Of a stretch of DNA of 64,000 nucleotides, positions 5,291 through 64,000 are shown in pieces. Every line of letters starts with the position of its first letter. Positions within the stretch are counted from its first letter, which is position 1. The stretch comes from an uncultured Alphaproteobacteria bacterium (GTDB lineage: Bacteria; Pseudomonadota; Alphaproteobacteria; Bin95). A program made the position numbers and the translations under genes. The stretch covers positions 314 to 64,313 of the forward strand of contig CAWEBB010000026.1 of the NCBI GenBank assembly GCA_963807085.1. The letters run 5' to 3'. The notes under the pieces were generated by a model that was not told where the DNA came from, did no database searches, and saw only the letters and a list, made by a program, of their open reading frames with translations.

Positions 5291-6508
5291 GTGTCGCCGG
5301 TCCGGCTTGTCATCCTGGTTTGCACGGCACAGGTATTGGCTCAAATCGGCTCCAACACCTGGCCCGCCCTCCTTCCTGGTTTGGTCGCTCAATGGCAGCT
5401 TTCCAACAGCGAGGCGGGCTGGATCACTGGGCTCATGTATTTGGCCTATACCATTTCGGTGCCGATTTTGGTCACATCGACCGACCGGATCGACCCGAAA
5501 CGGATCTATTTGTTGGGCGTCGGGCTCAGTTTTTTCGGCCATCTGGGCTTTGCGCTGTTCGCCGACGGCTTCTGGACCGCTGCCCTGTTCCGCTCCATTG
5601 CCGGTATCGGCTGGGCTGGTACCTACATGACCGGGCTCAAGCTGTTGGCCGATCGGGTGGACGGCCGCCTGCTTTCCCGCGCCACCGCCGGCCACGCCGC
5701 GAGCATTGGCATCGCCGGCGCCATCTCTTTTGTTTTTGCCGACGTGATCGCAGACCGGGGCGGCTGGCAGGCGGCGTTCATGGCCTCCGCCGCCTGCGCC
5801 GGGTTCGCCTGGATCATCGCCCTCTTCGGTACGCCCTGGCAGGAGCCTAAGCCGCGCTCCGCGGCGCGGTTGTTCGACTTTGGTCCGGTCTTCCGCAACC
5901 GGTCGGCCATGGCGTACGGCATCGCCTATTGCGTGCATACGTGGGAGATGAACGTACTGCGCGGCTGGGCCGTCGCCTTCCTTGCCTGGGTTGCGCTCAC
6001 CACCGAAACCGACACCGCCTGGCTTGCGCCGACGGTTGTCGCCATGACGATGGCGCTGGTTGGCACCGGCACCAGCATTATCGGCAATGAAATGTCCATC
6101 CGGCTTGGCCGCCAGCGCGTGGTACGCCTTGCCATGACCCTCAGCGTTGCCTGCGCGGCCACCATCGGCTTTCTGGGCCCCACCAGCTATGCGCTCGCGG
6201 TCGCTTTCGTGCTCGGCTACGGCATGGTCATCTGGCTCGATTCTTCCTCGCTGACGGCAGGTGCGGCAGGTGCAGCCGCCGCCGGCAAGCGCGGCGCGAC
6301 GCTGGCCATTCACTCCATGCTCGGCTACGGCGGCGGCTTCGCCGGCCCGCTCACCATGGGATTCATTCTTGATTGGTCAGGCGGTATGTCGGTCATGGGG
6401 TGGGGCTATGCGTTCGCCGGAACCGCGGTGGTGCTGCTCGCCGGGCGAACCGCCTTTGTCATCCTGCGTCCCCGGGATCTTGCCGGCGACCGGGCCGCGA
6501 ACGGCTAG
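5291..6508 (+). CDS. MFS-type transporter
   Basis: 405-aa polytopic membrane protein with ~12 predicted TM helices and an MFS-like layout. Confidence 0.75.
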   Translation: MSPVRLVILVCTAQVLAQIGSNTWPALLPGLVAQWQLSNSEAGWITGLMYLAYTISVPILVTSTDRIDPKRIYLLGVGLSFFGHLGFALFADGFWTAALFRSIAGIGWAGTYMTGLKLLADRVDGRLLSRATAGHAASIGIAGAISFVFADVIADRGGWQAAFMASAACAGFAWIIALFGTPWQEPKPRSAARLFDFGPVFRNRSAMAYGIAYCVHTWEMNVLRGWAVAFLAWVALTTETDTAWLAPTVVAMTMALVGTGTSIIGNEMSIRLGRQRVVRLAMTLSVACAATIGFLGPTSYALAVAFVLGYGMVIWLDSSSLTAGAAGAAAAGKRGATLAIHSMLGYGGGFAGPLTMGFILDWSGGMSVMGWGYAFAGTAVVLLAGRTAFVILRPRDLAGDRAANG

Positions 6509-6560
6509 AGCCGGTCCCGATACCAATGAACCGGGATCCGCTCTCGAACCATAAGGTGCT

Positions 6561-7232
6561 TTAGGCGGGCAAGCGCCGGTACCATAGGCCGACGAATATG
6601 CCAACGGCGAAGCCGCCGATATGTGCCCACCAGGCGACTCCGCTTTCATCGCCGCCCTGCTGGCTCATGAATACCTGGATGCCGATCCACACCAGGATAA
6701 TGACCCACGCCCGAAGCCGGATCGGCAGGAATATGGGCGTGAGCATGGTAATGCGATTCCGCGGAAACAGCGCCAGATAAGCACCCATGACACCGGCAAT
6801 CGCCCCGCTCGCACCGACGAGCACGGTCGTGGATTCCGGGAACATTGCCCCCTGCAGCAGCCCCGCGATGACGCCGCTGCCCAAATACAGAACCGCATAG
6901 CGGCTATGGTTGAGCCTGTCCTCGACCAAGGCACCGAACACATAAAGCGCAACCATGTTGGCGATCAGATGCGCGGCGCCGCCATGCAGGAACTGATACG
7001 TCACCAGCGTCAACGCGCTCGGCACCACGTCAATCGCGGGCGGGCGGGCGAGCCCCTGAAACAGCACGCCCGGAATGAAGCCGAAGGCGTAAGTCGCCTG
7101 CCACTCCGCGGGCGCCGACAATCCGCTGAGCCAGATCTGCACGATGGTGCAAAAAACGATCACGCCCCAGGTCAGATAGGGCGCCCCGATCCGGCGGAGT
7201 TGGTGGTCGCTATGGACCGGCAGGAACGGCAC
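6561..7232 (-). CDS. Rhomboid-family intramembrane serine protease
   Basis: 223 aa, multi-TM, with GASGAIAGVMGAYLALFP (GxSG catalytic serine) and an HLIANMVALYVFG-like histidine helix. Confidence 0.85.
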   Translation of the reverse strand: MPFLPVHSDHQLRRIGAPYLTWGVIVFCTIVQIWLSGLSAPAEWQATYAFGFIPGVLFQGLARPPAIDVVPSALTLVTYQFLHGGAAHLIANMVALYVFGALVEDRLNHSRYAVLYLGSGVIAGLLQGAMFPESTTVLVGASGAIAGVMGAYLALFPRNRITMLTPIFLPIRLRAWVIILVWIGIQVFMSQQGGDESGVAWWAHIGGFAVGIFVGLWYRRLPA

Positions 7233-7247
7233 TGTCCGCCCGCTCCC

Positions 7248-8051
7248 CTATGCGCTGAGCAACGGCCGCGGCGGCGCGTCAGCCAGATCGCACCAGACGG
7301 GCGTGTGGTCGCTGGCCTTGGGCTTGTCCCGGGGCTCCTTGTCGATGCCGGCACCGGTCAGCCGGTCGGCCGCCGCAGGCGACAGCAGCAGATGGTCGAT
7401 GCGGATGCCCTCGCCCCGATGCCAGCGGCCTTTCTGATAGTCCCAAAAGCTGTACGCCCCAAGCTGATGGGGGTGCATGGCGCGGAAGGCGTCCGTCAGC
7501 CCGAGATGGACCATCCGGCGGAACGCCCGGCGCGTGGGCAGCATGTAGAGTGCATCATCCTTCCACGCCGCCACGTCCCAACAATCCCCCGGCGCCGGGA
7601 TAACGTTATAGTCGCCGGCCAGCACGACCGGGCCGCCGCCGCGAAGCAACTCGCGCGCCCTCGTCTCCAGACGCTCCATCCAGGCAAGCTTGTAGTCATA
7701 CTTGGCCGGATCGTCCGGCGGGTTGCCGTTGGGCAGGTAGAGGCATCCGATCCGAACGCCCTCTACCGACGCCTCTACATACCGGGCCTGCTCGTCGGCA
7801 TCATCCCCGGGCAGACCCTCGCTCACGTCCTCGAGGCCTAGCCGCGAGAGCAGGGCAACGCCGTTATAGGCCTTCTGTCCGACGACCGCCGATGCGAAGC
7901 CGAATTTCTCGAATGCCGCTGCCGGGAACTGGTCCGCCTCGCACTTGATCTCCTGCAGGCAGACAACGTCGGCGTTATCGGCGGCCAGCCACTCGCAGAC
8001 GGCCTCCAGGCGCACTTTGATCGAATTGACGTTCCAGGTCGCGATACGCAT
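7248..8051 (-). CDS. xthA: Exodeoxyribonuclease III
   Basis: 267 aa starting MRIATWNVNSIKVRLEAVCEWL...VVCLQEIK, the characteristic ExoIII/APE family N-terminus. Confidence 0.9.
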   Translation of the reverse strand: MRIATWNVNSIKVRLEAVCEWLAADNADVVCLQEIKCEADQFPAAAFEKFGFASAVVGQKAYNGVALLSRLGLEDVSEGLPGDDADEQARYVEASVEGVRIGCLYLPNGNPPDDPAKYDYKLAWMERLETRARELLRGGGPVVLAGDYNVIPAPGDCWDVAAWKDDALYMLPTRRAFRRMVHLGLTDAFRAMHPHQLGAYSFWDYQKGRWHRGEGIRIDHLLLSPAAADRLTGAGIDKEPRDKPKASDHTPVWCDLADAPPRPLLSA

Positions 8052-8130
8052 GGGCGCGAACTACAGCCTCCCGGGGCGGATGTCCATCATGGCGGAATAT
8101 CCGGCAATGGTGCCGGCGCCATGGCGGCAA

Positions 8131-8169
8131 GAGCAGATCCCGATCCATTCGGGTCGGATGGATCTGCTC
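8131..8169. repeat. Imperfect 14-bp-stem hairpin upstream of xthA; shares a 17-nt core with the element after atpC
   Basis: gagcagatcc-cg-atcc attcgggtc ggat-ggatctgctc. The core agagcagatcccgatcc is identical at 45214-45230. Confidence 0.6.
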
Positions 8170-8247
8170 CAAATCGAAAAACTAGAGCATCTTACCCCGA
8201 CAAATTGAGCGCGATAGCGATCCAATTTAATCGGGCGATGCTCTAAC

Positions 8248-8291
8248 ATGGAGAAGCCTTCACCGGGGCTCCCCGGTGAAGGCTTCTCCAT
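8248..8291. terminator. Perfect 21-bp inverted-repeat hairpin downstream of rplQ, probably the alpha-operon terminator
   Basis: atggagaagccttcaccgggg ct ccccggtgaaggcttctccat sits 80-125 nt past the rplQ stop in the rplQ/xthA intergenic region. No clear U-tract, so an intrinsic-terminator call is tentative. Confidence 0.5.
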
Positions 8292-8372
8292 CATACGAAT
8301 CGTTTGCCAATGTTCGGCAATATTTATCCGGCTCAAGCCTACTCGTCGAAGCCTGGGCGGCGCTCGCCCGGC

Positions 8373-8807
8373 TTACGCCACGGCTTCGGCGAACTCTTCC
8401 TCGTCCGCCTGTTCGGCCGTCGGACCCGAGTCGGTTCCCTTTGCATCCGGATCGCGGTCTACCAGTTCGATCACCGCCATCGGCGCGGAATCCCCGTAGC
8501 GGAAGCCGGCCTTCATGATGCGGATATAGCCGCCGGGACGGTCTTCGTAACGCGGTCCGATGACTTCAAACAGCTTTCCCGCGACCTTCTCGTCCCGCAG
8601 GGTCGCAATCACCTGCCGGCGCGCATGCAAATCCCCGCGTTTGCCTAGGGTGATCAGCTTTTCCGTGTAGGGCCGCAGATCTTTCGCCTTCGGCAGGGTC
8701 GTAACGATCTGCTCGTGCTTCAGCAGCGCCGCCGCCAGGTTGGCCAGCATCGCTCGGCGGTGTGCGCGGGTCCGGCCAAATTTGCGGCCGCTCATGCCAT
8801 GGCGCAT
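8373..8807 (-). CDS. rplQ: 50S ribosomal protein L17
   Basis: [25 protein letters not shown]... is the L17 signature; gene follows rpoA. Confidence 0.95.
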
Positions 8808-8847
8808 GGGTACAATCCTTTTGCGTCTCTAACGCGGTTGGGGCGGG

Positions 8848-9870
8848 TCAGTAAGGCTCTTCCAAGCGCTTTGCCAGTTCTTCGATATTGTCCGGCGGCC
8901 AGTTCGGAATTTCCATACCCAGATGCAGGCCCATCTGTTCCAGCACCTGCTTGATTTCGGTCAGCGACTTCCGGCCGAAGTTCGGGGTGCGCAGCATCTC
9001 GCCCTCGGTCTTTTGCACCAGATCGCCGATATAGACGATATTGTCGTTCTTCAGGCAATTGGCCGACCGGACCGAGAGTTCGAGCTCGTCGACCTTGCGC
9101 AGCAGATTCTTGTTGAATGGCAGTTCGGTCTGCGGCTCGTGCTCCACGACCGGGCGCGGCTCGTCGAAGTTGATGAACAGCTGCAACTGATCCTGCAGGA
9201 TGCGGGCGGCCACCGCCACCGCATCATCCGGCGTGACCGACCCGTTGGTCTCTACCGTCAGTGACAGCTTGTCATAGTCCGTCACCTGGCCGACGCGGGT
9301 GTTCTCTACCTTGTAGGCCACTTGGCGCACCGGCGAGTAGACCGCGTCCACCGGGATCTCACCGATGGTGGCCTCCTCGCCGCGGTTGGCGGCCGCCGGC
9401 ACATAGCCTTTGCCGTTCTCGACCATCATTTCCATATGGACATGCGCGCCCTGGTCGAGCGTGCAGATGACCAGGTCCGGGTCCATCACCTCAATGTCGG
9501 GGCCGGTCTCGATCATGCCGGCGGTCGCGACCCCGGGGCCGGTAGCATCCAGCGTGACCCGTTTCGGTCCTTCGGCGTGCAAGCGCAGGCCCATGGCCTT
9601 GATGTTGAGCACAATGTCCGTCACGTCTTCCCGGACGCCGGGGATCGACGAGAACTCGTGCAGAACGCCATCGATCCGCACCGTGGTGACGGCCGCGCCC
9701 TGCAGCGAGGAAAGCAGAATGCGCCGCAACGCATTGCCGAGCGTAATGCCGAAACCCCGCTCCAGCGGTTCGGCGACCACGGTCGCGGTACGGCTCCTGT
9801 CCGGGCCCGGCTCGACCTCAAGCTTCGACGGCTTGATCAGATCGGTCCAGTTGTGTTGCATCATCGACAT
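8848..9870 (-). CDS. rpoA: DNA-directed RNA polymerase subunit alpha
   Basis: 340 aa with conserved alpha NTD and CTD; sits between rpsK and rplQ. Confidence 0.95.
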
Positions 9871-48109: not shown

Positions 48110-50629
48110 ATGCTTATGAGTAATTCCCTTGCGAACTCGATCTGCACGCTGGGGTTCGCCTTCCTGGTGGCAGTTGCTTCCACCGCCGTGGCCCAGCAGG
48201 TTACGGGTGAACTTGGCTCTCCGGCCGCCACAACCACCATCGACGGCAAACAACTTCCCACACCTGATCCCGCCTTCGGCGGCGTGATCAAGGACGACGC
48301 TCTTCAGTCCAAGCCGTGGTGGGCGCCGCGCATTGTCCCGCCGAAACAAGCGCCGAACATCCTGCTTATCATCACCGATGACGCTGGGTTCGGCGTGCCG
48401 AGCACCTTTGGTGGCGTCATTCCAACGCCGACTATGGACCGGGTGGCAAATGCCGGCCTCCGCTACAACAACATCCATTCGACAGCCCTGTGTTCGCCGA
48501 CACGCGCGGCGCTGATCACGGGCCGTAACCACCACTCGGCCGGCTTCGGCGTCATTGCCGAGCAAGCCACCGGCTACCCCGGCTATAATAGTATTATTGC
48601 CGAAGATAAGGCCACGATCGGACGGATCCTTCTGGAGAATGGCTATGCCACCTCCTGGTTCGGCAAGGATCATAACACGCCGGCCTTTGCCGCAAGCCAG
48701 GCCGGGCCATTCGACCAGTGGCCGACTGGCCTGGGCTTTGAGTATTTTTACGGTTTCGTGGGCGGCGACGCGAACCAGTGGCAGCCAAATCTGTTTCGCA
48801 ATACGACGCAGATTTACCCCTTTGACGGCAAGCCGGAATGGAACCTTATTACCGGCATGGCGGATGACGCCATAGACTACCTGAACCGTCTCAACCAGAC
48901 GATTCCTGACAAACCCTTCTTCGTAAAGTACGCGCCAGGCGCCACGCACGCCCCCCATCACCCGACCAAGGAGTGGGTGGAAAAGATCAGTGCGATGCAT
49001 TTGTTTGACGAGGGATATAACAAGGTCCGGGAGCAGATCTTCGAGAACCAAAAGAAGCTTGGCGTTATTCCGCAAGACACGCAGTTGGAGCCGTGGCCGA
49101 CGGACCTGCTGAAGAGTTGGGACGACCTTCCCGCTGAAGAGCGTAAATTGTTCATCAAGCAGGTGGAAATTTTTGCGGCCTATGCTGCCTACAACGACCA
49201 CGAGATCGGGCGTGTCATCCAGACGATCGAGGATATGGGCAAGCTCGACAACACACTGATTATTTACATCAACGGCGACAATGGCACGAGCGCCGAGGGT
49301 GGACCTTTGGGTACTCCAAATGAAGTCGCGTTCTTCAATGGCGTCAACGAGATGCCGGTAAAGACACAGATGAACTGGTATGATGTCTGGGGCACCGAGC
49401 AAACCTACAATCACATGTCCGCAGGCTGGTCCTGGGCGTTCGACACGCCGTTCACCTGGTTCAAGCAAAATGCCTCCAAACTCGGTGGCATCCGCCAAAG
49501 CATGGCAGTCTCATGGCCGGCGGGCATCAAAGACAAGGGTGGCATGCGCGAACAATTCATGCATGTTATCGACGTAGTACCTACTCTCCTCGAAGTATCT
49601 GGCATCGCCGCACCTGAAATGGTGGATGGCATCAAGCAGGCGCCGATTGAGGGCACGAGTTTCGCCTATACCTTCAACGCGGAAAACGCCGAGGCGCCCT
49701 CGCAGCACAAAATCCAGTATTTCGAGATGATGGGCCAGTGGGCGCTCTACGACGAAGGCTGGTTGCTCAGCACCAAAGTGAATCGCGCACCGTGGCAGGC
49801 CTTTGGGGTGGCCAATCCCGATCCGCTCAATAACCAGGTGCTCGAACTCTACGACCTGAATACGGACTTCAGCCAATCGAAAAACATCGCTGCCCAGCAT
49901 CCCGACAAGGTTAAGGCGATGAAGGCGATGTTCATTGAGGAAGCGAAAAAGTACCAGGTCTTCCCGATGGATGCCTCAGTCGCAGCCCGTTTGGTCGCAC
50001 CGCGCCCGAACATCACCGCCGGCCGAACGGAGTTTGTTTACACGCATCCGATGGTTGGTCTCCCGCAAGGCGACTCGCCGTCACTCCTGAACACTTCCTA
50101 CACGATCACGGCGGAGATCGATGTGCCTGAAGGTGGGGCCGAGGGCATGATCCTTACCTCCGGCGGGCGCTTTGCCGGCTATGGCTTTTACCTGCTTGAA
50201 GGCAAGCCGGTGTTCCTCTGGAACCTGATCGATCTGGAGCGCATCAAATGGGAAGGTCAGGAAGCGCTGACGCCAGGCAAGCACACCATTGAGTTCGACT
50301 TCAAATATGAAGGCCTGGGGACCGGAACGCTGCGCTACAATAATATGAGCGGCCTCGGCCGCCCCGGCACCGGCGAACTTAAAGTAGACGGCAAGACTGT
50401 CGCGACCAAGCGGATGGAGAAAACCATTCCGATGATCTTGCAGTGGGACGAGTTGTTCGACATCGGCTCCGATACGCTGACGGGCGTCAATGACGCGGAC
50501 TACAAGCCTCCGTTCGCCCTGACCGCAAAACTCGACAAGCTGACGATCAAAGTGGATCGGCCGCAATTGTCAGCCGAGGACATCAAGAAACTCAGTGCCG
50601 CCCAGCGCAACAACAAGTCAAGCGAGTAG
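48110..50629 (+). CDS. Arylsulfatase (formylglycine-dependent sulfatase), secreted
   Basis: 839 aa; signal peptide; sulfatase signature ALCSPTRAALITGRNHH (C-x-P-x-R) plus the second sulfatase motif GKDHNTP. The gene and its flanks are at visibly lower GC than the surroundings. Confidence 0.85.
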   Translation: MLMSNSLANSICTLGFAFLVAVASTAVAQQVTGELGSPAATTTIDGKQLPTPDPAFGGVIKDDALQSKPWWAPRIVPPKQAPNILLIITDDAGFGVPSTFGGVIPTPTMDRVANAGLRYNNIHSTALCSPTRAALITGRNHHSAGFGVIAEQATGYPGYNSIIAEDKATIGRILLENGYATSWFGKDHNTPAFAASQAGPFDQWPTGLGFEYFYGFVGGDANQWQPNLFRNTTQIYPFDGKPEWNLITGMADDAIDYLNRLNQTIPDKPFFVKYAPGATHAPHHPTKEWVEKISAMHLFDEGYNKVREQIFENQKKLGVIPQDTQLEPWPTDLLKSWDDLPAEERKLFIKQVEIFAAYAAYNDHEIGRVIQTIEDMGKLDNTLIIYINGDNGTSAEGGPLGTPNEVAFFNGVNEMPVKTQMNWYDVWGTEQTYNHMSAGWSWAFDTPFTWFKQNASKLGGIRQSMAVSWPAGIKDKGGMREQFMHVIDVVPTLLEVSGIAAPEMVDGIKQAPIEGTSFAYTFNAENAEAPSQHKIQYFEMMGQWALYDEGWLLSTKVNRAPWQAFGVANPDPLNNQVLELYDLNTDFSQSKNIAAQHPDKVKAMKAMFIEEAKKYQVFPMDASVAARLVAPRPNITAGRTEFVYTHPMVGLPQGDSPSLLNTSYTITAEIDVPEGGAEGMILTSGGRFAGYGFYLLEGKPVFLWNLIDLERIKWEGQEALTPGKHTIEFDFKYEGLGTGTLRYNNMSGLGRPGTGELKVDGKTVATKRMEKTIPMILQWDELFDIGSDTLTGVNDADYKPPFALTAKLDKLTIKVDRPQLSAEDIKKLSAAQRNNKSSE

Positions 50630-57738: not shown

Positions 57739-58569
57739 TCAGACCGGCCGTTCGCCCTTGATGGTGACGCGGTGGCCTTTGCGCTCTTCCGGCCAGTAGT
57801 CCCACATGGCCAGATGCTGGGCGCAGCGATTGTCCCAAAAGGCCATATCATTGACCTCCCACTTGTGCCGCACCTGGAAGCGCTCCCCTGCCATGTGCCG
57901 GCAGAGGAAGCCCAGGATCGCATCGCTCTCCGGTCTGGTCAGCCCCTTGATTCTGGTGGTGAAGGCGCCGTTCACGTAAAGCGCCTTTTTGCCGGTCACG
58001 GGATGGGTGCGCACCACCGGATGCACCGCGCTCGGATAGACCTTGCCCGCATCGTCCACGCCCCGATCGGAGTAACGGCCGCGGTAGATGTGCTCGCTCT
58101 CATGCACGGCCTGAAGGGGCCCGAGAAATTCCTTCATCTCGTCTGAAAGCGCGTCATAAGCCGCATACATGCTGGCGAACAGCGTGTCGCCGCCAGTGGA
58201 CGGCAGTTGGTGCAATTGCAGCATGGTGCCGAGCGGTGGTTCCTCATCGCAACTCACATCGGTGTGCCAGACGCTGCCGTTGGCGATCTTCGAGTCCTTG
58301 TGCGTGTGGATCACGAAGATCTCCGGATAGTCCGGGTGCGTGGGCGCAGCGGGATGGACATGCAGATCGCCGAAGCGGCGGCCGAGCGCGATCTGTTTGT
58401 CCGGCGGGATAGGCTGCTGCTCTTTGAAGAACACCACCAGATGGTCGGCGAAAGCCTGGTGGATTTCGTCGAACTGCTGGTTGGAGACGTCCCGCGTCAG
58501 GTCGATGCCGCGGATCTCCGCCCCGATCGTCGGGTTCAGCGGCTTCACGTCGAGGGTTTGATAGCTCAT
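57739..58569 (-). CDS. TauD/TfdA-family Fe(II)/2-oxoglutarate-dependent dioxygenase
   Basis: 276 aa from ATG 58569; WHTDVSCDEEPPLGTMLQL...GGDTLFASM...RVTIKGERP: H-x-D...H facial triad context of taurine dioxygenase relatives. Confidence 0.8.
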   Translation of the reverse strand: MSYQTLDVKPLNPTIGAEIRGIDLTRDVSNQQFDEIHQAFADHLVVFFKEQQPIPPDKQIALGRRFGDLHVHPAAPTHPDYPEIFVIHTHKDSKIANGSVWHTDVSCDEEPPLGTMLQLHQLPSTGGDTLFASMYAAYDALSDEMKEFLGPLQAVHESEHIYRGRYSDRGVDDAGKVYPSAVHPVVRTHPVTGKKALYVNGAFTTRIKGLTRPESDAILGFLCRHMAGERFQVRHKWEVNDMAFWDNRCAQHLAMWDYWPEERKGHRVTIKGERPV

Positions 58570-58594
58570 GGCGCTCGCCCTTCTCCGTCCGCAA

Positions 58595-59428
58595 TCAATA
58601 GGGGCGGTCGCCGGCAACGGTGACCCGATAGCCGCTCCGCACCTGGGGAAAGTAGTCCCACATGGCCAGATGCTGCACGGCCCGGTTGTCCCAGAACGCC
58701 ACCGAGTCCTTTGCCCAGGAGAAGCGGCAAACGAACTGCTCTTTGCGGTTATGGGCGTAAAGGAATTCGAGAATGGCTTTGCTCTCGTCCTCCGGGATGC
58801 CGATGATGTACTGCGTGAATACCGGGTTGACGAAAATGCCCTTCTTGCCGGTCACCGGATGGGTGCGGATCACCGGGTGGTCGGCGTGCGGGAACTGCCT
58901 GGTGTCGTCCTTGCCGTCGATGCGGGCGCGGCGGTTATAGTTCGGCGTGCCGTCGTGCCGTGCGGTCAGGCCGCCAAGGAACTGCTTCATCGGCTCGCTC
59001 AAAGCCTCATAGGCGGCGTTGGAGCTGGCGAACAGCGTGTCGCCACCGCTCGGCGGAACGGTATGCAGATGCAGGATGGAGCCCATCGGCGGCTCCGGAT
59101 CGCACGACACATCGGAATGCCAGCGGTGGCCGGCTACCTGTTTCGAGTTCTCGTCGGCGTGGATGCGCAGGATCTCCGGGTGCCCTTCCGGCCCCGGCGC
59201 CGACGGATGAATGTGCAGCGGGCCGAAGCGGCGGCCGAAATCCTTGTGCTGCTCCAGGGTCATGTCCTGGTCGCGAAAAAAGATGACCTGGTGGGCCATC
59301 AGCGCGTCGTGGATTTCCTGGAACTGCTGGTTTCCGAGCGGCTCCGCCAGCTTCACGCCGTGCACCTCGGCGCCAACGGTCGGGGTCAGCGGCCGGACTT
59401 CGATGGTTTCGTAATGGATCGCGGACAT
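58595..59428 (-). CDS. TauD/TfdA-family Fe(II)/2-oxoglutarate-dependent dioxygenase (tandem paralogue)
   Basis: 277 aa; WHSDVSCDPEPPMGSILHL...GGDTLFASS...; roughly 45-50% identical to the neighbour by eye. Confidence 0.8.
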   Translation of the reverse strand: MSAIHYETIEVRPLTPTVGAEVHGVKLAEPLGNQQFQEIHDALMAHQVIFFRDQDMTLEQHKDFGRRFGPLHIHPSAPGPEGHPEILRIHADENSKQVAGHRWHSDVSCDPEPPMGSILHLHTVPPSGGDTLFASSNAAYEALSEPMKQFLGGLTARHDGTPNYNRRARIDGKDDTRQFPHADHPVIRTHPVTGKKGIFVNPVFTQYIIGIPEDESKAILEFLYAHNRKEQFVCRFSWAKDSVAFWDNRAVQHLAMWDYFPQVRSGYRVTVAGDRPY

Positions 59429-61054: not shown

Positions 61055-61564
61055 ATGATCGACAAACTGTTTTGTGCGGCCGCGCTTTCCGCAGGTATCG
61101 TTCTGACGGCGCCGGCCGCCGGTGCGGATGAGGCACAAACCACAATGCACAACAGCTCGGGTGAAGAGGTAGGATCGGTAACACTGGTCCCAACGGAAAA
61201 CGGCGTCCTGTTGCATGCGAAGCTCGAGAATATGCCGGAAGGCACGCACGCCTTTCATATCCACGAGACGGGGCAGTGTGATCCGCCGTCGTTCACATCG
61301 GCCGGCGGTCACCATAACCCGACTGCGGCGGACCATGGCTTCTTCTCCAACGGCGGCGTTCACGCGGGCGACATGCCGAATATCCATGTGCCGGCATCGG
61401 GCTCCTTGGAAATCGAGGTGCTGAATGTTTGGGTCGGGCTGGACGGCTTGCTGCTGGATGACGACGGTGCGGCGATCGTCGTTCATGAAGGCGCCGACGA
61501 CTACCGAACCGACCCGGCCGGTGATGCCGGCTCCCGCATAGCCTGCGGCGTCATCAAATATTGA
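61055..61564 (+). CDS. sodC: Periplasmic Cu/Zn superoxide dismutase
   Basis: 169 aa; signal peptide; HAFHIHETGQCDPPSFTSAGGHHNP...GDAGSRIACGVI. Confidence 0.9.
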   Translation: MIDKLFCAAALSAGIVLTAPAAGADEAQTTMHNSSGEEVGSVTLVPTENGVLLHAKLENMPEGTHAFHIHETGQCDPPSFTSAGGHHNPTAADHGFFSNGGVHAGDMPNIHVPASGSLEIEVLNVWVGLDGLLLDDDGAAIVVHEGADDYRTDPAGDAGSRIACGVIKY

Positions 61565-61828: not shown

Positions 61829-62440
61829 ATGACAAACCCTGCCCCCTCTCCCGAAGCCTCTCCCGAAGCGGTGCCCGCGAAAGAAGCGCCCACAACAGCC
61901 CCGCCGCCGAAGCGCAAGAACCGCGGTCCGGCGATCTTTGCGCTGTCGCTCATGATCGTCTCGGGCGGGCTCTGCTGGATCCTCTATGGCTGGGAGACGG
62001 TGCGGCACGTGCTGTTCAACGATTGGGAGCTGATGATCAACGTGCTGCCGCGCATGGCGCTGGGCGTTCTGATCTATGGCTTTCTGACCGTGCTCATTCC
62101 ACGGGACTGGGTGGCCAAACACATGGGGCACGAGGCCGGCTGGAAGGGTTTGGCGATCGGCCTGCTGGCGGGCGCGGTGGCGCCGGGCGGGCCGTGGGTG
62201 ATCTATCCGCTGGCGGTCATGCTGATCCGGTTTGGCGCCGAAGTGGGGGCGGTCGTGACCTTCATGATGTCGTGGAGCTTGCTTGGCATGAACCGGTTCC
62301 TGGTTTGGGAGGTTTCGTTTCTGGGCGAGGATATCGCTGCCATGCGGCTGCTGGTGGGCCTGCCCTTCCCCATTCTGGCGGGGCTGGCGGTGCGCTGGTT
62401 CTGGCGCGAGCAGCAATGGCCGCGGGTGTACCGGGAGTAA
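61829..62440 (+). CDS. Putative permease, N-terminal component of a two-gene DUF318-type permease
   Basis: 203 aa, 5-6 TM; the low-complexity N-terminus may mean the true start is internal. Confidence 0.55.
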   Translation: MTNPAPSPEASPEAVPAKEAPTTAPPPKRKNRGPAIFALSLMIVSGGLCWILYGWETVRHVLFNDWELMINVLPRMALGVLIYGFLTVLIPRDWVAKHMGHEAGWKGLAIGLLAGAVAPGGPWVIYPLAVMLIRFGAEVGAVVTFMMSWSLLGMNRFLVWEVSFLGEDIAAMRLLVGLPFPILAGLAVRWFWREQQWPRVYRE

Positions 62441-62463: not shown

Positions 62464-62952
62464 ATGGGAATCTCCACCATTATCCTGATTGCGGCCGTGG
62501 TCGGTATGGGTCTGGCGGTACTGGTTCATCCGGAGCGCACGCTGGGCGAGGCGCTGAAGATTTCCGGAAAGCAGGCGTTGTTCCTGATCCCTGTGATCAT
62601 TCCCGCCATCATCTCGGCCGGGTTCGTCGCGCAGCTCCTGCCCAGCGAGGAAATTGGCCGGTGGGTGGGCGCGGACTCGGGTTTTACAGGTGCGATGATC
62701 GCCGCCGCTTTCGGCGCGCTGATGCCGACCGGGCCGATGCTGATCCTGCCGGTGGTGGCGGCCCTGCTGAGCGCCAATGCGGGCGAGGCGCAGATGCTGG
62801 CGCTGCTAACCGCCTGGATGATGATGAACGTGCAGCGCCTGGTGCTTTACGACCTGCCGCTGGCGGGCTTCCCCCTGACCGCAAGGCGTTACAGCATGGG
62901 CCTGATCGCAACCCCGCTTGCGGCATTGCTCGCGCTGGCGGTGGTGGGATAG
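62464..62952 (+). CDS. Putative permease, C-terminal component of the two-gene DUF318-type permease
   Basis: 162 aa, 4-5 TM, own AAGGA RBS 24 nt after the upstream stop. Confidence 0.55.
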   Translation: MGISTIILIAAVVGMGLAVLVHPERTLGEALKISGKQALFLIPVIIPAIISAGFVAQLLPSEEIGRWVGADSGFTGAMIAAAFGALMPTGPMLILPVVAALLSANAGEAQMLALLTAWMMMNVQRLVLYDLPLAGFPLTARRYSMGLIATPLAALLALAVVG

Positions 62953-62976
62953 GCCTCTTTCGTCAAACTCAATGCT

Positions 62977-63876
62977 TCAATACTTGAACTGGTTCTCTCG
63001 ATGCCACGCCAAGAAACGCGGATGTGGCTTGTCGGATTCTCGTTCGGGGCGATTGATGAAGCCGTTCTTATTGATGATTGCATGAATTGCTGACAAGTCG
63101 TTTACCTGACGGGAAATTAGAACCTCAAGATTGTCAGCAATGCTTATTAATCCGCGGTCGAACATCCAGTGCGCGGTACCGGACAATGCGATGCCATTCG
63201 TTAAAATGTCCGGCCCATTGTTCTCGACAGGTTGAATATGGGCAGCTTCAACCTCTGCCCGTCCACCTCCATTAATCAGTTTGAGACTGGTAATAGCACA
63301 GCGTTCGTCATAGGCGGCAAGCACAATTTGCCGAAAATTTCGATCACGAACGATGCGCGATCCTAGATATTCTGAACGCTCGCGTTCGTTGTAAAAATAT
63401 GGCGGCGAATCGAATTCGGATAGGCCGTCGACAGGGAGATTATCGTCAAGTCGCGGTAACAAAGAAGCAGAGGTGCGGAGACCGAGGTTTATAATCCGGT
63501 CAAAATCCGCTACTGGAATAGTACGCACAGCGGCCTGCGCGCGTCCTGATACGCTCCCACCCTTATTCAACACGCTACGTTCTGGAACACCATAAGTGCT
63601 GCGGAATGGAACCGGGCTACCAAACTCCAGATAGCTGCTCTTTTCGATGATCGCGATAAACATTTTCGGGATTGTTGGATCCGGAACTATCTCTTGGACC
63701 TTGGCGAGGGCGAAATATCCCTTTGAACGCTTCACCTTGGATGGCTCAAGATAGATTATCCAATCGCCTACGCATTGTTGTGCTCGGCTCAGGTAATTTT
63801 GAGGAAACTGGTATTGCTCAGAGGGTATGTCTTCGTAAACTGAATCTGACCGGTGGATGAATACGCCTTTGGCCAT
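62977..63876 (-). CDS. HNH-family endonuclease with uncharacterised N-terminal domain (possible modification-dependent/type IV restriction enzyme)
   Basis: 299 aa from ATG 63876; C-terminal HNH motif EVEAAHIQPVENNGPDILTNGIALSGTAHWMFDRGLISI. N-terminal ~150 aa (VFIHRSDSVYEDIPSEQYQFPQNYL...GDWIIYLEP) look like a DNA-recognition module. Gene is ~47-50% GC against a ~65% background. Confidence 0.65.
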   Translation of the reverse strand: MAKGVFIHRSDSVYEDIPSEQYQFPQNYLSRAQQCVGDWIIYLEPSKVKRSKGYFALAKVQEIVPDPTIPKMFIAIIEKSSYLEFGSPVPFRSTYGVPERSVLNKGGSVSGRAQAAVRTIPVADFDRIINLGLRTSASLLPRLDDNLPVDGLSEFDSPPYFYNERERSEYLGSRIVRDRNFRQIVLAAYDERCAITSLKLINGGGRAEVEAAHIQPVENNGPDILTNGIALSGTAHWMFDRGLISIADNLEVLISRQVNDLSAIHAIINKNGFINRPERESDKPHPRFLAWHRENQFKY

Positions 63877-64000
63877 TTTGCTACCAAATGGGTGGGGTTG
63901 GCCTGGATATGATAACCATAAATTGAGCAGAGGAAAGCCAGAACATGAAAGAATGCGCAACGGGTTACGGACTGGTCGAAGGGCCGGTCTGGCACAAGGA

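What the first reader, a model, noticed from the sequence alone, without database searches (positions are those of the whole stretch)
62953..64000. Low-GC HNH endonuclease at the window edge: possible defence (type IV/modification-dependent restriction) gene in an acquired islet
GC drops to ~48% from 62.95 kb to the end of the window. The gene encodes an HNH nuclease (EVEAAHIQP...NGIALSGTAHWMFDRG) fused to a ~150-aa N-terminal domain of unknown family, the architecture typical of DNA-modification-sensing restriction nucleases. The islet continues beyond the window, so partner genes (methyltransferase, other defence modules, integrase) may lie just outside.
Basis: partly seen in the sequence, partly recalled or inferred. 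Interest (0 to 1): 0.6.

Follow-up and report, generated by a model that had tools for sequence, protein, structure and literature searches.

The report
Solitary PUA-HNH modification-dependent restriction gene
The low-GC patch at the window's end is a single inserted gene for a two-domain nuclease, a modified-base "reader" fused to an HNH cutter, which most likely destroys foreign DNA carrying chemical marks; it belongs to a large, untested alphaproteobacterial branch of a known enzyme class.

Summary
A complete 299-aa gene lies on the minus strand at 62977-63876. Its GC is 49.1% against 63.1% for the rest of the window (z = -4.8), and its GC3 is 0.50 against 0.70-0.85 in neighbouring genes.

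- **Catalytic domain:** the C-terminal half is an intact HNH_2 nuclease. Its closest solved relatives are the modification-dependent enzymes VcaM4I and TagI.
- **Sensor domain:** the N-terminal 135 residues match no Pfam family at threshold, but fold confidently (pLDDT 83) into a PUA-superfamily barrel of EVE/YTH/ASCH type. Some family members give sub-threshold, colinear EVE hits.
- **Reading:** the type IV (modification-dependent) interpretation is well supported by architecture. No activity or target modification has been shown.

The "islet continues beyond the window" idea is wrong. Bases 63945-64000 already start the next core gene (SGL family). Three relatives have the same order, permease | HNH | SGL, and one close relative has an empty site with only 37 nt between permease and SGL. 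The islet is one gene of about 0.96 kb, with no methyltransferase, integrase or defence partner.

The family is large: more than 7,700 clusters, at least 587 species, and 52 rhizobial plasmids. It is solitary, sits in varied contexts, and has not been characterised. Verdict: a new member of a known kind, of modest interest.

The parts
62977..63876 (-). Complete CDS (299 aa plus stop) of a PUA-like-HNH nuclease. This is the whole low-GC islet gene.
   Evidence: ORF. The start is fixed by alignments A1 and A6. P0001 is 100% identical. dN/dS is 0.10 against the ortholog in L086.
63472..63876 (-). N-terminal sensor domain (residues 1-135): a PUA-superfamily beta-barrel of EVE/YTH-like type. It is the putative pocket for a flipped modified base.
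   Evidence: AF2 pLDDT is 82-94 in the full-length model and 83.4 alone. Foldseek hits are VcaM4I, PH1033, Atu2648, YTHDF2/YTHDC2, ASCH and DrmA. Pfam EVE matches below threshold but colinearly in 7/22 and 4/31 family members. Y14, D16, Y22, F24, P25, Y28, Y54 and R118 are nearly invariant across the wide family.
63307..63471 (-). Inter-domain linker (residues about 136-190): a variable, low-confidence stretch followed by helices.
   Evidence: AF2 pLDDT is below 50 at residues 138-155, and helices are predicted at 164-171 and 174-196. This is the most variable part of the alignments. The region from about residue 164 aligns to the VcaM4I and TagI linker plus HNH.
62980..63306 (-). C-terminal HNH_2 (beta-beta-alpha-Me) nuclease domain with the conserved HRENxFK tail.
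   Evidence: Pfam PF13391 matches residues 193-246. PDB sequence hits are 6yex (2e-5) and 6ghs; by profile they are 7e-8 and 2e-8. H213, N227 and H236 are invariant in A1.
62953..62976 (.). A 24-nt spacer between the permease stop codon and the HNH stop codon (convergent genes). This is the left junction of the insertion.
   Evidence: Sequence. The alignment to the empty site in L082 places the left border near 62962.
63877..63944 (.). A 68-nt divergent intergenic region between the HNH and SGL genes. The right junction of the insertion is near 63920. No strong Shine-Dalgarno sequence precedes the HNH ATG.
   Evidence: The consensus promoter/terminator scan found nothing above the shuffle expectation.
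63945..64000 (+). Flank, not part of the islet: the first 18 codons of an SMP-30/gluconolactonase-like (SGL) gene.
   Evidence: The translation MKECATGYGLVEGPVWHK compares with MKVCATGYGLVEGPIWHE in L001. Pfam SGL is assigned in L001 and L086.
62464..62952 (+). Flank, not part of the islet: the second of two half-size ArsP_1-like permease genes, at host GC (GC3 0.83).
   Evidence: Pfam result. Orthologs are 87-90% identical in L001, L086 and L082.

Best explanation
The gene encodes a solitary, NTP-independent type IV (modification-dependent) restriction endonuclease of the PUA-superfamily-sensor plus HNH class. The mechanism is inferred by analogy with VcaM4I and TagI. The protein would dimerise through its HNH domains. 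Each N-terminal PUA-like barrel would scan DNA, flip a modified base into a conserved aromatic and acidic pocket, and thereby license the HNH active sites (H213, N227, H236, with a divalent metal) to cut nearby. Host DNA escapes because it lacks the mark, so no cognate methyltransferase is needed. The targets would be phages or plasmids with modified bases. A 5-substituted cytosine (5mC or 5hmC) is the leading guess, because alphaproteobacterial hosts carry CcrM GANTC m6A on their own DNA. The gene sits in this chromosome as a one-gene insertion between a permease gene and an SGL gene, and it is present in some close relatives and absent in at least one.

Shown here: the gene and its composition, the HNH family, the PUA-like fold, purifying selection, the absence of a partner gene, the presence/absence polymorphism, and carriage on plasmids and integrative elements elsewhere.

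Inferred only: modification dependence, the base recognised, dimerisation, and the defence role.
For: - **Nuclease:** Pfam HNH_2 passes its threshold. Among solved structures only modification-dependent HNH enzymes match: VcaM4I 6yex, TagI 6ghs and, weakly, EcoKMcrA 6ghc, over linker plus HNH and including the C-terminal HRENxFK tail. The archaeal-virus enzyme HHPV4I, reported as m6A-dependent (abstract of PMC10101028), is the best phage hit. The catalytic H, N and H residues are invariant.
- **Sensor:** the AF2 model is confident. The full-length model's best PDB match is VcaM4I (E 2e-5). The N-domain also matches EVE proteins (1zce, PH1033), YTH m6A readers, ASCH and DrmA, and EVE or ASCH proteins in viruses. 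Sub-threshold EVE hits cover Pfam profile positions 42-144 colinearly.
- **Layout:** the domain order and size (299 aa) match VcaM4I, which has EVE at 1-147, linker at 148-178 and HNH at 179-309 (PMC7897488).
- **No partner:** the 150 immediate neighbours of 81 family loci fall into 139 Pfam families, none present in more than 7. Lutz et al. use this same pattern as evidence of modification dependence (PMC6765204).
- **Functional gene:** dN/dS is 0.10.
- **Mobile and variable:** there is an empty site in L082. The gene's GC is 14 points below the host's. The family occurs on 52 plasmid records, 29 of them conjugative, and in an integrase-Xre-98 aa-HNH cassette in 14 Rhodobacterales loci.
Against: - No enzymatic or phage data exist for any member of this family, as far as the library searches show.
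- The N-domain does not reach the Pfam EVE threshold (16 bits against 23), has no HMMER-detectable relative in the PDB, and is only 12% identical to VcaM4I in the structural alignment.
- TM-scores of about 0.5-0.58 fit EVE, YTH and ASCH equally well, so the ligand cannot be read from the fold.
- PUA-like domains also bind RNA.
- Four EVE-HNH proteins tested by Lutz et al. gave inconclusive activity.
- The HNH domain was poorly modelled (pLDDT 39-67).
- The family is unusually conserved (about 60% identity across orders, fixed length) and syntenic in three diverged genomes, which is less typical of fast-turnover defence genes.
Confidence: 0.68

Rival explanations
1. The protein is a modification-dependent nuclease, but it reads adenine methylation (m6A outside the host's own GANTC context, for example Dam GATC or dense phage m6A) or a phage hypermodified base rather than 5mC or 5hmC. 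This is a variant of the best explanation with a different ligand.
For: The N-domain alone matches YTH m6A readers, including YTHDC2 bound to m6A DNA, as well as it matches EVE proteins (TMq 0.50-0.57 against 0.58). The YTH-like N-domain of Staphylothermus McrB is the top single-domain hit of the full model. ScoA3V, a PUA-HNH enzyme of a separate clade, is stimulated by 6mA (PMC6765204). One distant family member carries an extra DpnI_C-like winged-helix hit, a domain type reported as a 6mA sensor (abstract of PMC11037411).
Against: From established knowledge of CcrM, alphaproteobacterial hosts methylate GANTC genome-wide, so a context-free m6A reader would be self-toxic. The only sub-threshold sequence signal is to EVE, not YTH. 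The characterised EVE-HNH enzymes prefer 5hmC or 5mC.
Confidence: 0.2
2. The gene is not a restriction enzyme. The PUA-like domain reads a modified base in RNA or a nucleotide signal, and the HNH domain acts as a stress, programmed-cell-death or toxin effector, or as a repair nuclease.
For: EVE, YTH, PUA and ASCH domains commonly bind modified RNA, and EVE domains occur in toxin-antitoxin and cell-death contexts (PMC7641849). A PUA module that binds m6-dAMP and triggers abortive defence has been reported (abstract of PMC12871103). The family is highly conserved and often sits next to housekeeping genes such as guaA and efp.
Against: The HNH and linker match only DNA-cleaving modification-dependent enzymes among solved structures. 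No antitoxin or partner gene is conserved. Absence from a close relative argues against a core repair role.
Confidence: 0.08
3. The gene is a selfish, free-standing homing-type HNH endonuclease that inserted itself between two conserved genes.
For: It is a single-gene insertion of about 0.96 kb with foreign composition, no integrase and no target-site duplication. Occupied and empty sites both occur among relatives.
Against: The catalytic domain is the HNH_2 type shared with type IV enzymes, and the N-domain is a PUA-like reader rather than a sequence-specific DNA-binding module. The gene is not in an intron, intein or phage. Family members sit at many unrelated loci. The gene is under purifying selection and has been kept at one locus through saturated synonymous divergence.
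Confidence: 0.03
4. The gene is a phosphorothioate-dependent restriction endonuclease, as the best NCBIfam name (PT-DNA_restrict) would suggest.
For: NCBIfam NF045808 gives E 2.3e-27.
Against: The score is 95.9 bits against a curated cut-off of 180. Only profile positions 158-284 (the HNH part) align, to residues 174-298, so the N-terminal part of that profile has no counterpart here. The N-domain folds as a PUA-like barrel instead.
Confidence: 0.02

Closest known systems
EVE-HNH type IV enzymes of the TspA15I group (TspA15I, VcaM4I, CmeDI; PDB 6yex; PMC6765204, PMC7897488)
   Same: Both have an N-terminal PUA-superfamily barrel, a helical linker and a C-terminal HNH_2 domain. Both are about 300 aa, solitary genes without a methyltransferase, and end in the HRENVFK-like tail. 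VcaM4I is the best PDB hit of the full-length model and a top sequence hit for the HNH half.
   Different: The sensor domains share no HMMER-detectable similarity and are 12% identical in the structural alignment, whereas TspA15I-group members are 46-50% identical to each other. The Pfam EVE match is only sub-threshold. This family is essentially alphaproteobacterial, and its specificity has not been tested.
SRA-HNH type IV enzymes (TagI, ScoA3IV/Sco5333; PDB 6ghs)
   Same: Both share the HNH_2 nuclease and linker (profile E 2e-8), the two-domain layout and the solitary gene arrangement.
   Different: The sensor here is not an SRA domain. No SRA structure appears among the top PDB fold hits.
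ScoA3V (Sco5330), a PUA-HNH enzyme with 6mA-stimulated nicking activity (PMC6765204)
   Same: It also has a PUA-like sensor of a clade separate from the TspA15I group, fused to an HNH domain. This shows that such fusions can read adenine methylation.
   Different: Close homologs of ScoA3V were found only in Actinomycetales.
NCBIfam NF045808, phosphorothioated-DNA-binding restriction endonuclease
   Same: The HNH domains are homologous.
   Different: The match falls below the curated cut-off, and the N-terminal part of the profile has no counterpart.

Membership tests
[quoted passage not shown] | N-terminal PUA-superfamily (EVE/SRA/YTH/ASCH-like) beta-barrel sensor domain | tested here: met
   AF2 N-domain pLDDT is 83.4. 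Foldseek matches VcaM4I, PH1033, Atu2648, YTH, ASCH and DrmA with probability 0.9-1.0 and TMq 0.50-0.58.
[quoted passage not shown] | C-terminal HNH (beta-beta-alpha-Me) nuclease with intact catalytic residues | tested here: met
   PF13391 scores 35.2 bits against a cut-off of 21. H213, N227 and H236 are invariant. The domain aligns to VcaM4I and TagI.
[quoted passage not shown] | No cognate DNA methyltransferase next to the gene | tested here: met
   The window, L001 and L086 have no methyltransferase nearby. Among 150 neighbours of 81 loci, only 2 carry MmeI-type IIG RM domains, and the generic methyltransferase families occur in 4 or fewer.
[quoted passage not shown] | Cleavage stimulated by a modified base, or restriction of modified phage or plasmid DNA | not testable with these tools
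   This needs enzyme assays or phage spot tests. No publication on this family was found.
EVE-HNH, TspA15I/VcaM4I group specifically | Sensor domain recognisable as EVE (Pfam PF01878 at its gathering score) and similar in sequence to TspA15I, VcaM4I and CmeDI | tested here: not met
   The window protein gives no EVE hit. Relatives score at most about 16 bits against a cut-off of 23. The N-domain profile finds no PDB chain. Identity to VcaM4I is 12%.
EVE-HNH, TspA15I/VcaM4I group specifically | Base-flipping pocket equivalent to VcaM4I Q10/T11/E15/W22/P24/W82/Y130 with wedge Q128 | tested here: inconclusive
   The family has near-invariant residues D11, S12, D16, Y22, F24 and P25 at similar spacing.
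SRA-HNH (TagI/ScoA3IV) | SRA sensor domain | tested here: not met
   No SRA structure appears in the top 50 PDB fold hits. Only the HNH half aligns to TagI.
NCBIfam NF045808, PT-DNA restriction endonuclease | Whole-protein score at or above the curated cut-off (180 bits), including the N-terminal part of the profile | tested here: not met
   The score is 95.9 bits, and only profile positions 158-284 align.
Homing HNH endonuclease | Location in an intron, intein or phage genome, with a sequence-specific DNA-binding module | tested here: not met
   The gene is intergenic in the chromosome between a permease gene and an SGL gene. The sensor is PUA-like. Phage records match only the HNH part.
Defence island or multigene defence system | Conserved co-occurring partner genes | tested here: not met
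   The best recurring neighbour cluster occurs in 14 of 81 loci and is lineage-specific. The neighbours span 139 Pfam families. The islet here is one gene.

The most novel reading that the evidence does not exclude
This large alphaproteobacterial clade may carry a sensor pocket of a new PUA sub-family that reads a mark other than 5mC or 5hmC. Candidates are foreign (non-CcrM) adenine methylation or a phage hypermodified base. That would make it a widespread barrier tuned to the alphaproteobacterial methylome and a new-specificity reagent enzyme. A second unusual possibility is that its low GC3 (about 0.5 in hosts with GC3 above 0.8) is actively maintained, since it persists in three orthologs whose synonymous sites are saturated.
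Probability: 0.25. Interest if true: 0.5.

Novelty: new member of a known kind. Interest (0 to 1): 0.3.

Why it matters
Type IV enzymes decide which modified phages and plasmids can enter a cell, and they are used as reagents for epigenetic mapping. This family has more than 7,700 clusters at 90% identity and 864 clusters at 50% identity for the sensor domain. It occurs in at least 587 species and on symbiosis and conjugative plasmids of Rhizobium, Sinorhizobium and Agrobacterium. It has no Pfam model for its sensor and no published assay. Finding its target base would explain a common transformation or phage barrier in agriculturally and ecologically important Alphaproteobacteria, and it might add a new specificity to the reagent set. 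For this window specifically the result is ordinary: one solitary restriction-type gene, not the edge of a larger defence island.

Tried and rejected
- **Window's own contig:** an exact-sequence look-up of the window protein and of P0001, meant to read past 64000, found nothing on record. I solved this indirectly through the orthologous loci L001 and L086 and the empty site in L082.
- **N-domain search in the 5.8-billion-protein set:** it returned only fragments of the same family and no new architectures.
- **Third large homolog search:** I seeded it with the VcaM4I C-terminus recovered from PDB alignments, hoping to fetch full-length EVE-HNH proteins for a profile-profile comparison and pocket mapping. 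It returned only proteins of 229 aa or fewer, so the comparison could not be done.
- **N-domain profile against PDB sequences:** one spurious hit only.
- **Promoter/terminator scan:** nothing above the shuffle expectation.
- **tRNA scan of the window:** none found, so there is no tRNA-linked integration site.
- **Supplement of Lutz et al.:** not held, so I could not check whether this family was among their 350 ORFs.
- **Rejected readings:** phosphorothioate-dependent enzyme, SRA-HNH, homing endonuclease, a multigene islet continuing beyond the window, and the longer 327-aa ORF starting at TTG 63960, which would overlap the SGL start and is not supported by the family alignment.

Full report
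**1. Observation**

The last kilobase of the window is its lowest-GC kilobase: 0.495, against 0.546 for the next lowest. The drop coincides with one minus-strand ORF. The mechanical ORF runs 62977-63960 from a TTG start. All 55 aligned relatives begin at the ATG at 63876 (MAKGVF...), and a 100% identical 299-aa protein, P0001, is in the public collection.

The gene's GC is 0.491. All other 900-bp windows have mean 0.631, sd 0.029 and minimum 0.544, so z = -4.8. GC3 is 0.50, against 0.70-0.85 in the six genes to its left. The quoted HNH motifs are present, and Pfam HNH_2 matches residues 193-246 above its threshold. Nothing in Pfam matches residues 1-190. The gene lies on the minus strand and is complete within the window.

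**2. Extent of the islet**

Bases 63945-64000 (+) translate to MKECATGYGLVEGPVWHK. This is the start of an SMP-30/gluconolactonase-like (SGL) gene: the ortholog in L001 begins MKVCATGYGLVEGPIWHE.

- **L001**, a 5.16-Mb chromosome whose HNH protein is 71% identical, has the order SGL | HNH | two ArsP_1-like half-permeases | ... CoA-transferase | TauD | TauD. This is the window's order.
- **L086** (79% identical) has the same order.
- **L084** (74% identical) has the same permease-HNH junction before its contig ends.
- In L001 the GC dip is confined to the gene.
- **L082**, a metagenome contig whose permease is 90% identical to the window's, has the permease stop codon followed after 37 nt by the SGL start codon, with no HNH gene.

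The islet is therefore a single gene of about 0.96 kb, roughly 62963-63919 relative to the empty site. It is present in some relatives and absent in at least one. No methyltransferase, integrase or defence gene lies just beyond it in the orthologous loci. I found no tRNA gene and no target-site duplication.

**3. The protein**

*C-terminal half.* The HNH_2 domain matches three solved chains by sequence, all modification-dependent enzymes, and always over linker plus HNH:

| Chain | Enzyme | E-value |
|---|---|---|
| 6yex | VcaM4I | 2e-5 single sequence; 7e-8 with the family profile |
| 6ghs | TagI | 0.005 single sequence; 2e-8 with the family profile |
| 6ghc | EcoKMcrA | 0.24 with the family profile |

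The alignment to VcaM4I includes the C-terminal HRENxFK tail. H213, N227 and H236 are invariant. NCBIfam's best name, phosphorothioate-DNA restriction enzyme, rests only on this HNH part and scores 95.9 bits against a cut-off of 180. The best phage hit is the HNH of HHPV4I, an archaeal-virus enzyme reported as m6A-dependent (abstract of PMC10101028).

*N-terminal half.* AlphaFold2 models residues 1-135 confidently, with block pLDDT 82-94 in the full-length model and 83.4 for the domain alone.

- The full-length model's best PDB match is VcaM4I (E 2e-5). It is followed by the YTH-like N-domain of Staphylothermus McrB, DrmA, the EVE proteins Atu2648 and PH1033, and YTH and ASCH domains.
- The N-domain alone gives DrmA (E 9e-4), PH1033 (TMq 0.58), YTHDF2 (0.57), YTHDC2 bound to m6A DNA (0.55), ASCH/EOLA1 and the Lon N-domain.
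- In the viral structure library the best named hits are EVE and ASCH proteins.
- At sequence level the Pfam EVE model matches below threshold but colinearly: profile positions 42-144 align to residues about 35-131, at about 16 bits against a cut-off of 23. This occurs in 7 of 22 close relatives and 4 of 31 distant ones.

The domain is thus a divergent PUA-superfamily barrel closest to EVE and YTH.

**4. The family**

- More than 7,700 clusters at 90% identity match the full protein, and almost all are 297-300 aa.
- The N-domain profile finds 864 clusters at 50% identity (549 at E ≤ 1e-10). Of the 30 near-full-length relatives (274-388 aa) picked from the best 150 and aligned with the window protein, 26 of 31 rows carry HNH_2. 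No alternative nuclease partner was seen.
They span Hyphomicrobiales, Rhodobacterales, Sphingomonadales and Rhodospirillales-like lineages.
- Identity is higher within lineages (Rhodobacterales 0.92, Xanthobacteraceae 0.88, Phyllobacteriaceae 0.83) than between them (about 0.6-0.75). The window clade (window, L001, L086) averages 0.75 internally and is about 0.61 identical to all other groups.
- The 150 immediate neighbours of 81 loci fall into 139 Pfam families. The commonest are RibD_C (7), guaA domains (5-6), Fic/DUF4172 or SoFic (6), integrase (3), MmeI-type IIG RM (2) and HipA (2). There is no fixed partner and no cognate methyltransferase.
- In 14 Rhodobacterales loci the gene sits in a conserved cassette of tyrosine integrase, a small ORF, an Xre-type HTH protein, a 98-aa ORF and then HNH.
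- 52 plasmid records carry the family (Rhizobium 20, Sinorhizobium 14, Agrobacterium 12), and 29 of them are predicted to be conjugative.
- Family genes average 4.4 GC points below their flanks, and up to 12 points in high-GC hosts.

**5. Mechanism**

The best-supported reading is a solitary, NTP-independent type IV enzyme built like VcaM4I and TagI: PUA-like sensor, linker, HNH. For VcaM4I, crystal structures show three things (PMC7897488):

- dimerisation through the HNH domains;
- flipping of 5mC or 5hmC into a hydrophobic EVE pocket formed by Q10, T11, E15, W22, P24, W82 and Y130, with Q128 as a wedge;
- auto-inhibition by the linker helices and the EVE domains.

The present family has nearly invariant Y14, D16, Y22, F24, P25, Y28, Y54 and R118 across its wide alignment. 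The run D11-S12...D16...Y22-x-F24-P25 resembles the spacing of the VcaM4I pocket residues. I could not align the two sensors residue by residue, so this remains a lead only.

Lutz et al. found that PUA-nuclease fusions rarely have a neighbouring DNA methyltransferase, and they took this as support for modification dependence (PMC6765204). The same pattern holds here.

Which base is read is open. EVE-HNH enzymes prefer 5hmC or 5mC. A separate PUA-HNH clade, ScoA3V, is stimulated by 6mA, and the fold hits include m6A-binding YTH domains. Alphaproteobacteria methylate GANTC with CcrM (established knowledge), so a context-free m6A reader would harm its host. I therefore favour a modified cytosine, with moderate confidence.

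The gene is functional: dN/dS against L086 is 0.10.

**6. Rival readings**

I considered four rivals and give their weights in the rival list:

- an RNA-directed or signal-directed effector;
- a homing-type selfish HNH;
- a phosphorothioate-dependent enzyme;
- a different ligand within the same mechanism.

**7. An unexplained feature**

The three syntenic orthologs all keep GC3 at 0.47-0.52 although their synonymous sites are saturated (pS 0.61-0.81). The adjacent permease shows pS 0.44-0.47 at GC3 of about 0.83-0.85. Long residence without amelioration could reflect selection, for example for low expression of a hazardous nuclease, or repeated allelic replacement from a lower-GC gene pool. 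I could not distinguish these.

**8. Verdict**

The type IV architecture and the "acquired" character are supported. The idea of a larger islet with partners beyond the window is not. This is a new, uncharacterised member family of a known enzyme class. Interest is modest (0.3). It would rise if the sensor proves to read an unusual modification.

Noticed in passing
window 62977-63876; L001 10001-10900; L086 8046-8945: All three syntenic orthologs keep GC3 at about 0.47-0.52 in genomes whose neighbouring genes have GC3 of 0.76-0.85, even though their synonymous sites are saturated (pS 0.61-0.81). No amelioration is visible, and the cause is unknown.
   Followed up: partly
L022, L023, L026, L029, L033, L036 and other Rhodobacterales loci, about 5800-8900: In 14 Rhodobacterales loci the homolog (about 92% identical among them) lies in a conserved cassette: tyrosine integrase (364 aa), a small ORF, an Xre/HTH_3 protein (140-178 aa), a 98-aa ORF with no Pfam match ending about 5 nt upstream, then HNH. 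In some loci a DUF3800 gene follows. This looks like an integrative element with a controller-like regulator.
   Followed up: partly
P0332 (388 aa): This distant family member has an extra N-terminal extension of about 88 aa. One member of alignment A6 gave a weak DpnI_C (Dam-replacing winged-helix) hit at E 0.0057, probably this protein. That domain type is reported as a 6mA sensor.
   Followed up: no
window 48110-50629 (+): The second-lowest GC stretch of the window (0.55-0.58 over 48-51 kb) encodes an 839-aa sulfatase-family protein. It is flanked by a CoA-transferase gene and an MFS transporter gene.
   Followed up: partly
window 61829-62440 and 62464-62952 (+): Two adjacent half-size ArsP_1-like permease genes (203 and 162 aa) are weakly similar to each other. 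The pair is conserved in L001, L086, L082, L084 and L085, which suggests a split or heterodimeric permease.
   Followed up: no
window 57739-58617 and 58595-59428 (-): Two tandem TauD-family dioxygenase paralogues overlap by 23 nt. The relative L001 also has two, and L086 has one.
   Followed up: no
window 61055-61564 (+) versus L001 12097-13494: The window has a Cu/Zn superoxide dismutase gene between the CoA-transferase and permease genes. L001 and L086 have DUF4399 and Asp/Glu racemase genes at that position, so there is a second small gene-content difference in this neighbourhood.
   Followed up: no
L041 and L049 (Ancylobacter tetraedralis DSM 5895): Two copies of the family occur on different contigs of one genome.
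   Followed up: no
L001 7425-7988 (+): A separate 187-aa PF01844/HNH_5 protein is encoded about 2 kb from the PUA-HNH gene in the syntenic relative. Whether the window's genome has it lies beyond base 64000.
   Followed up: no
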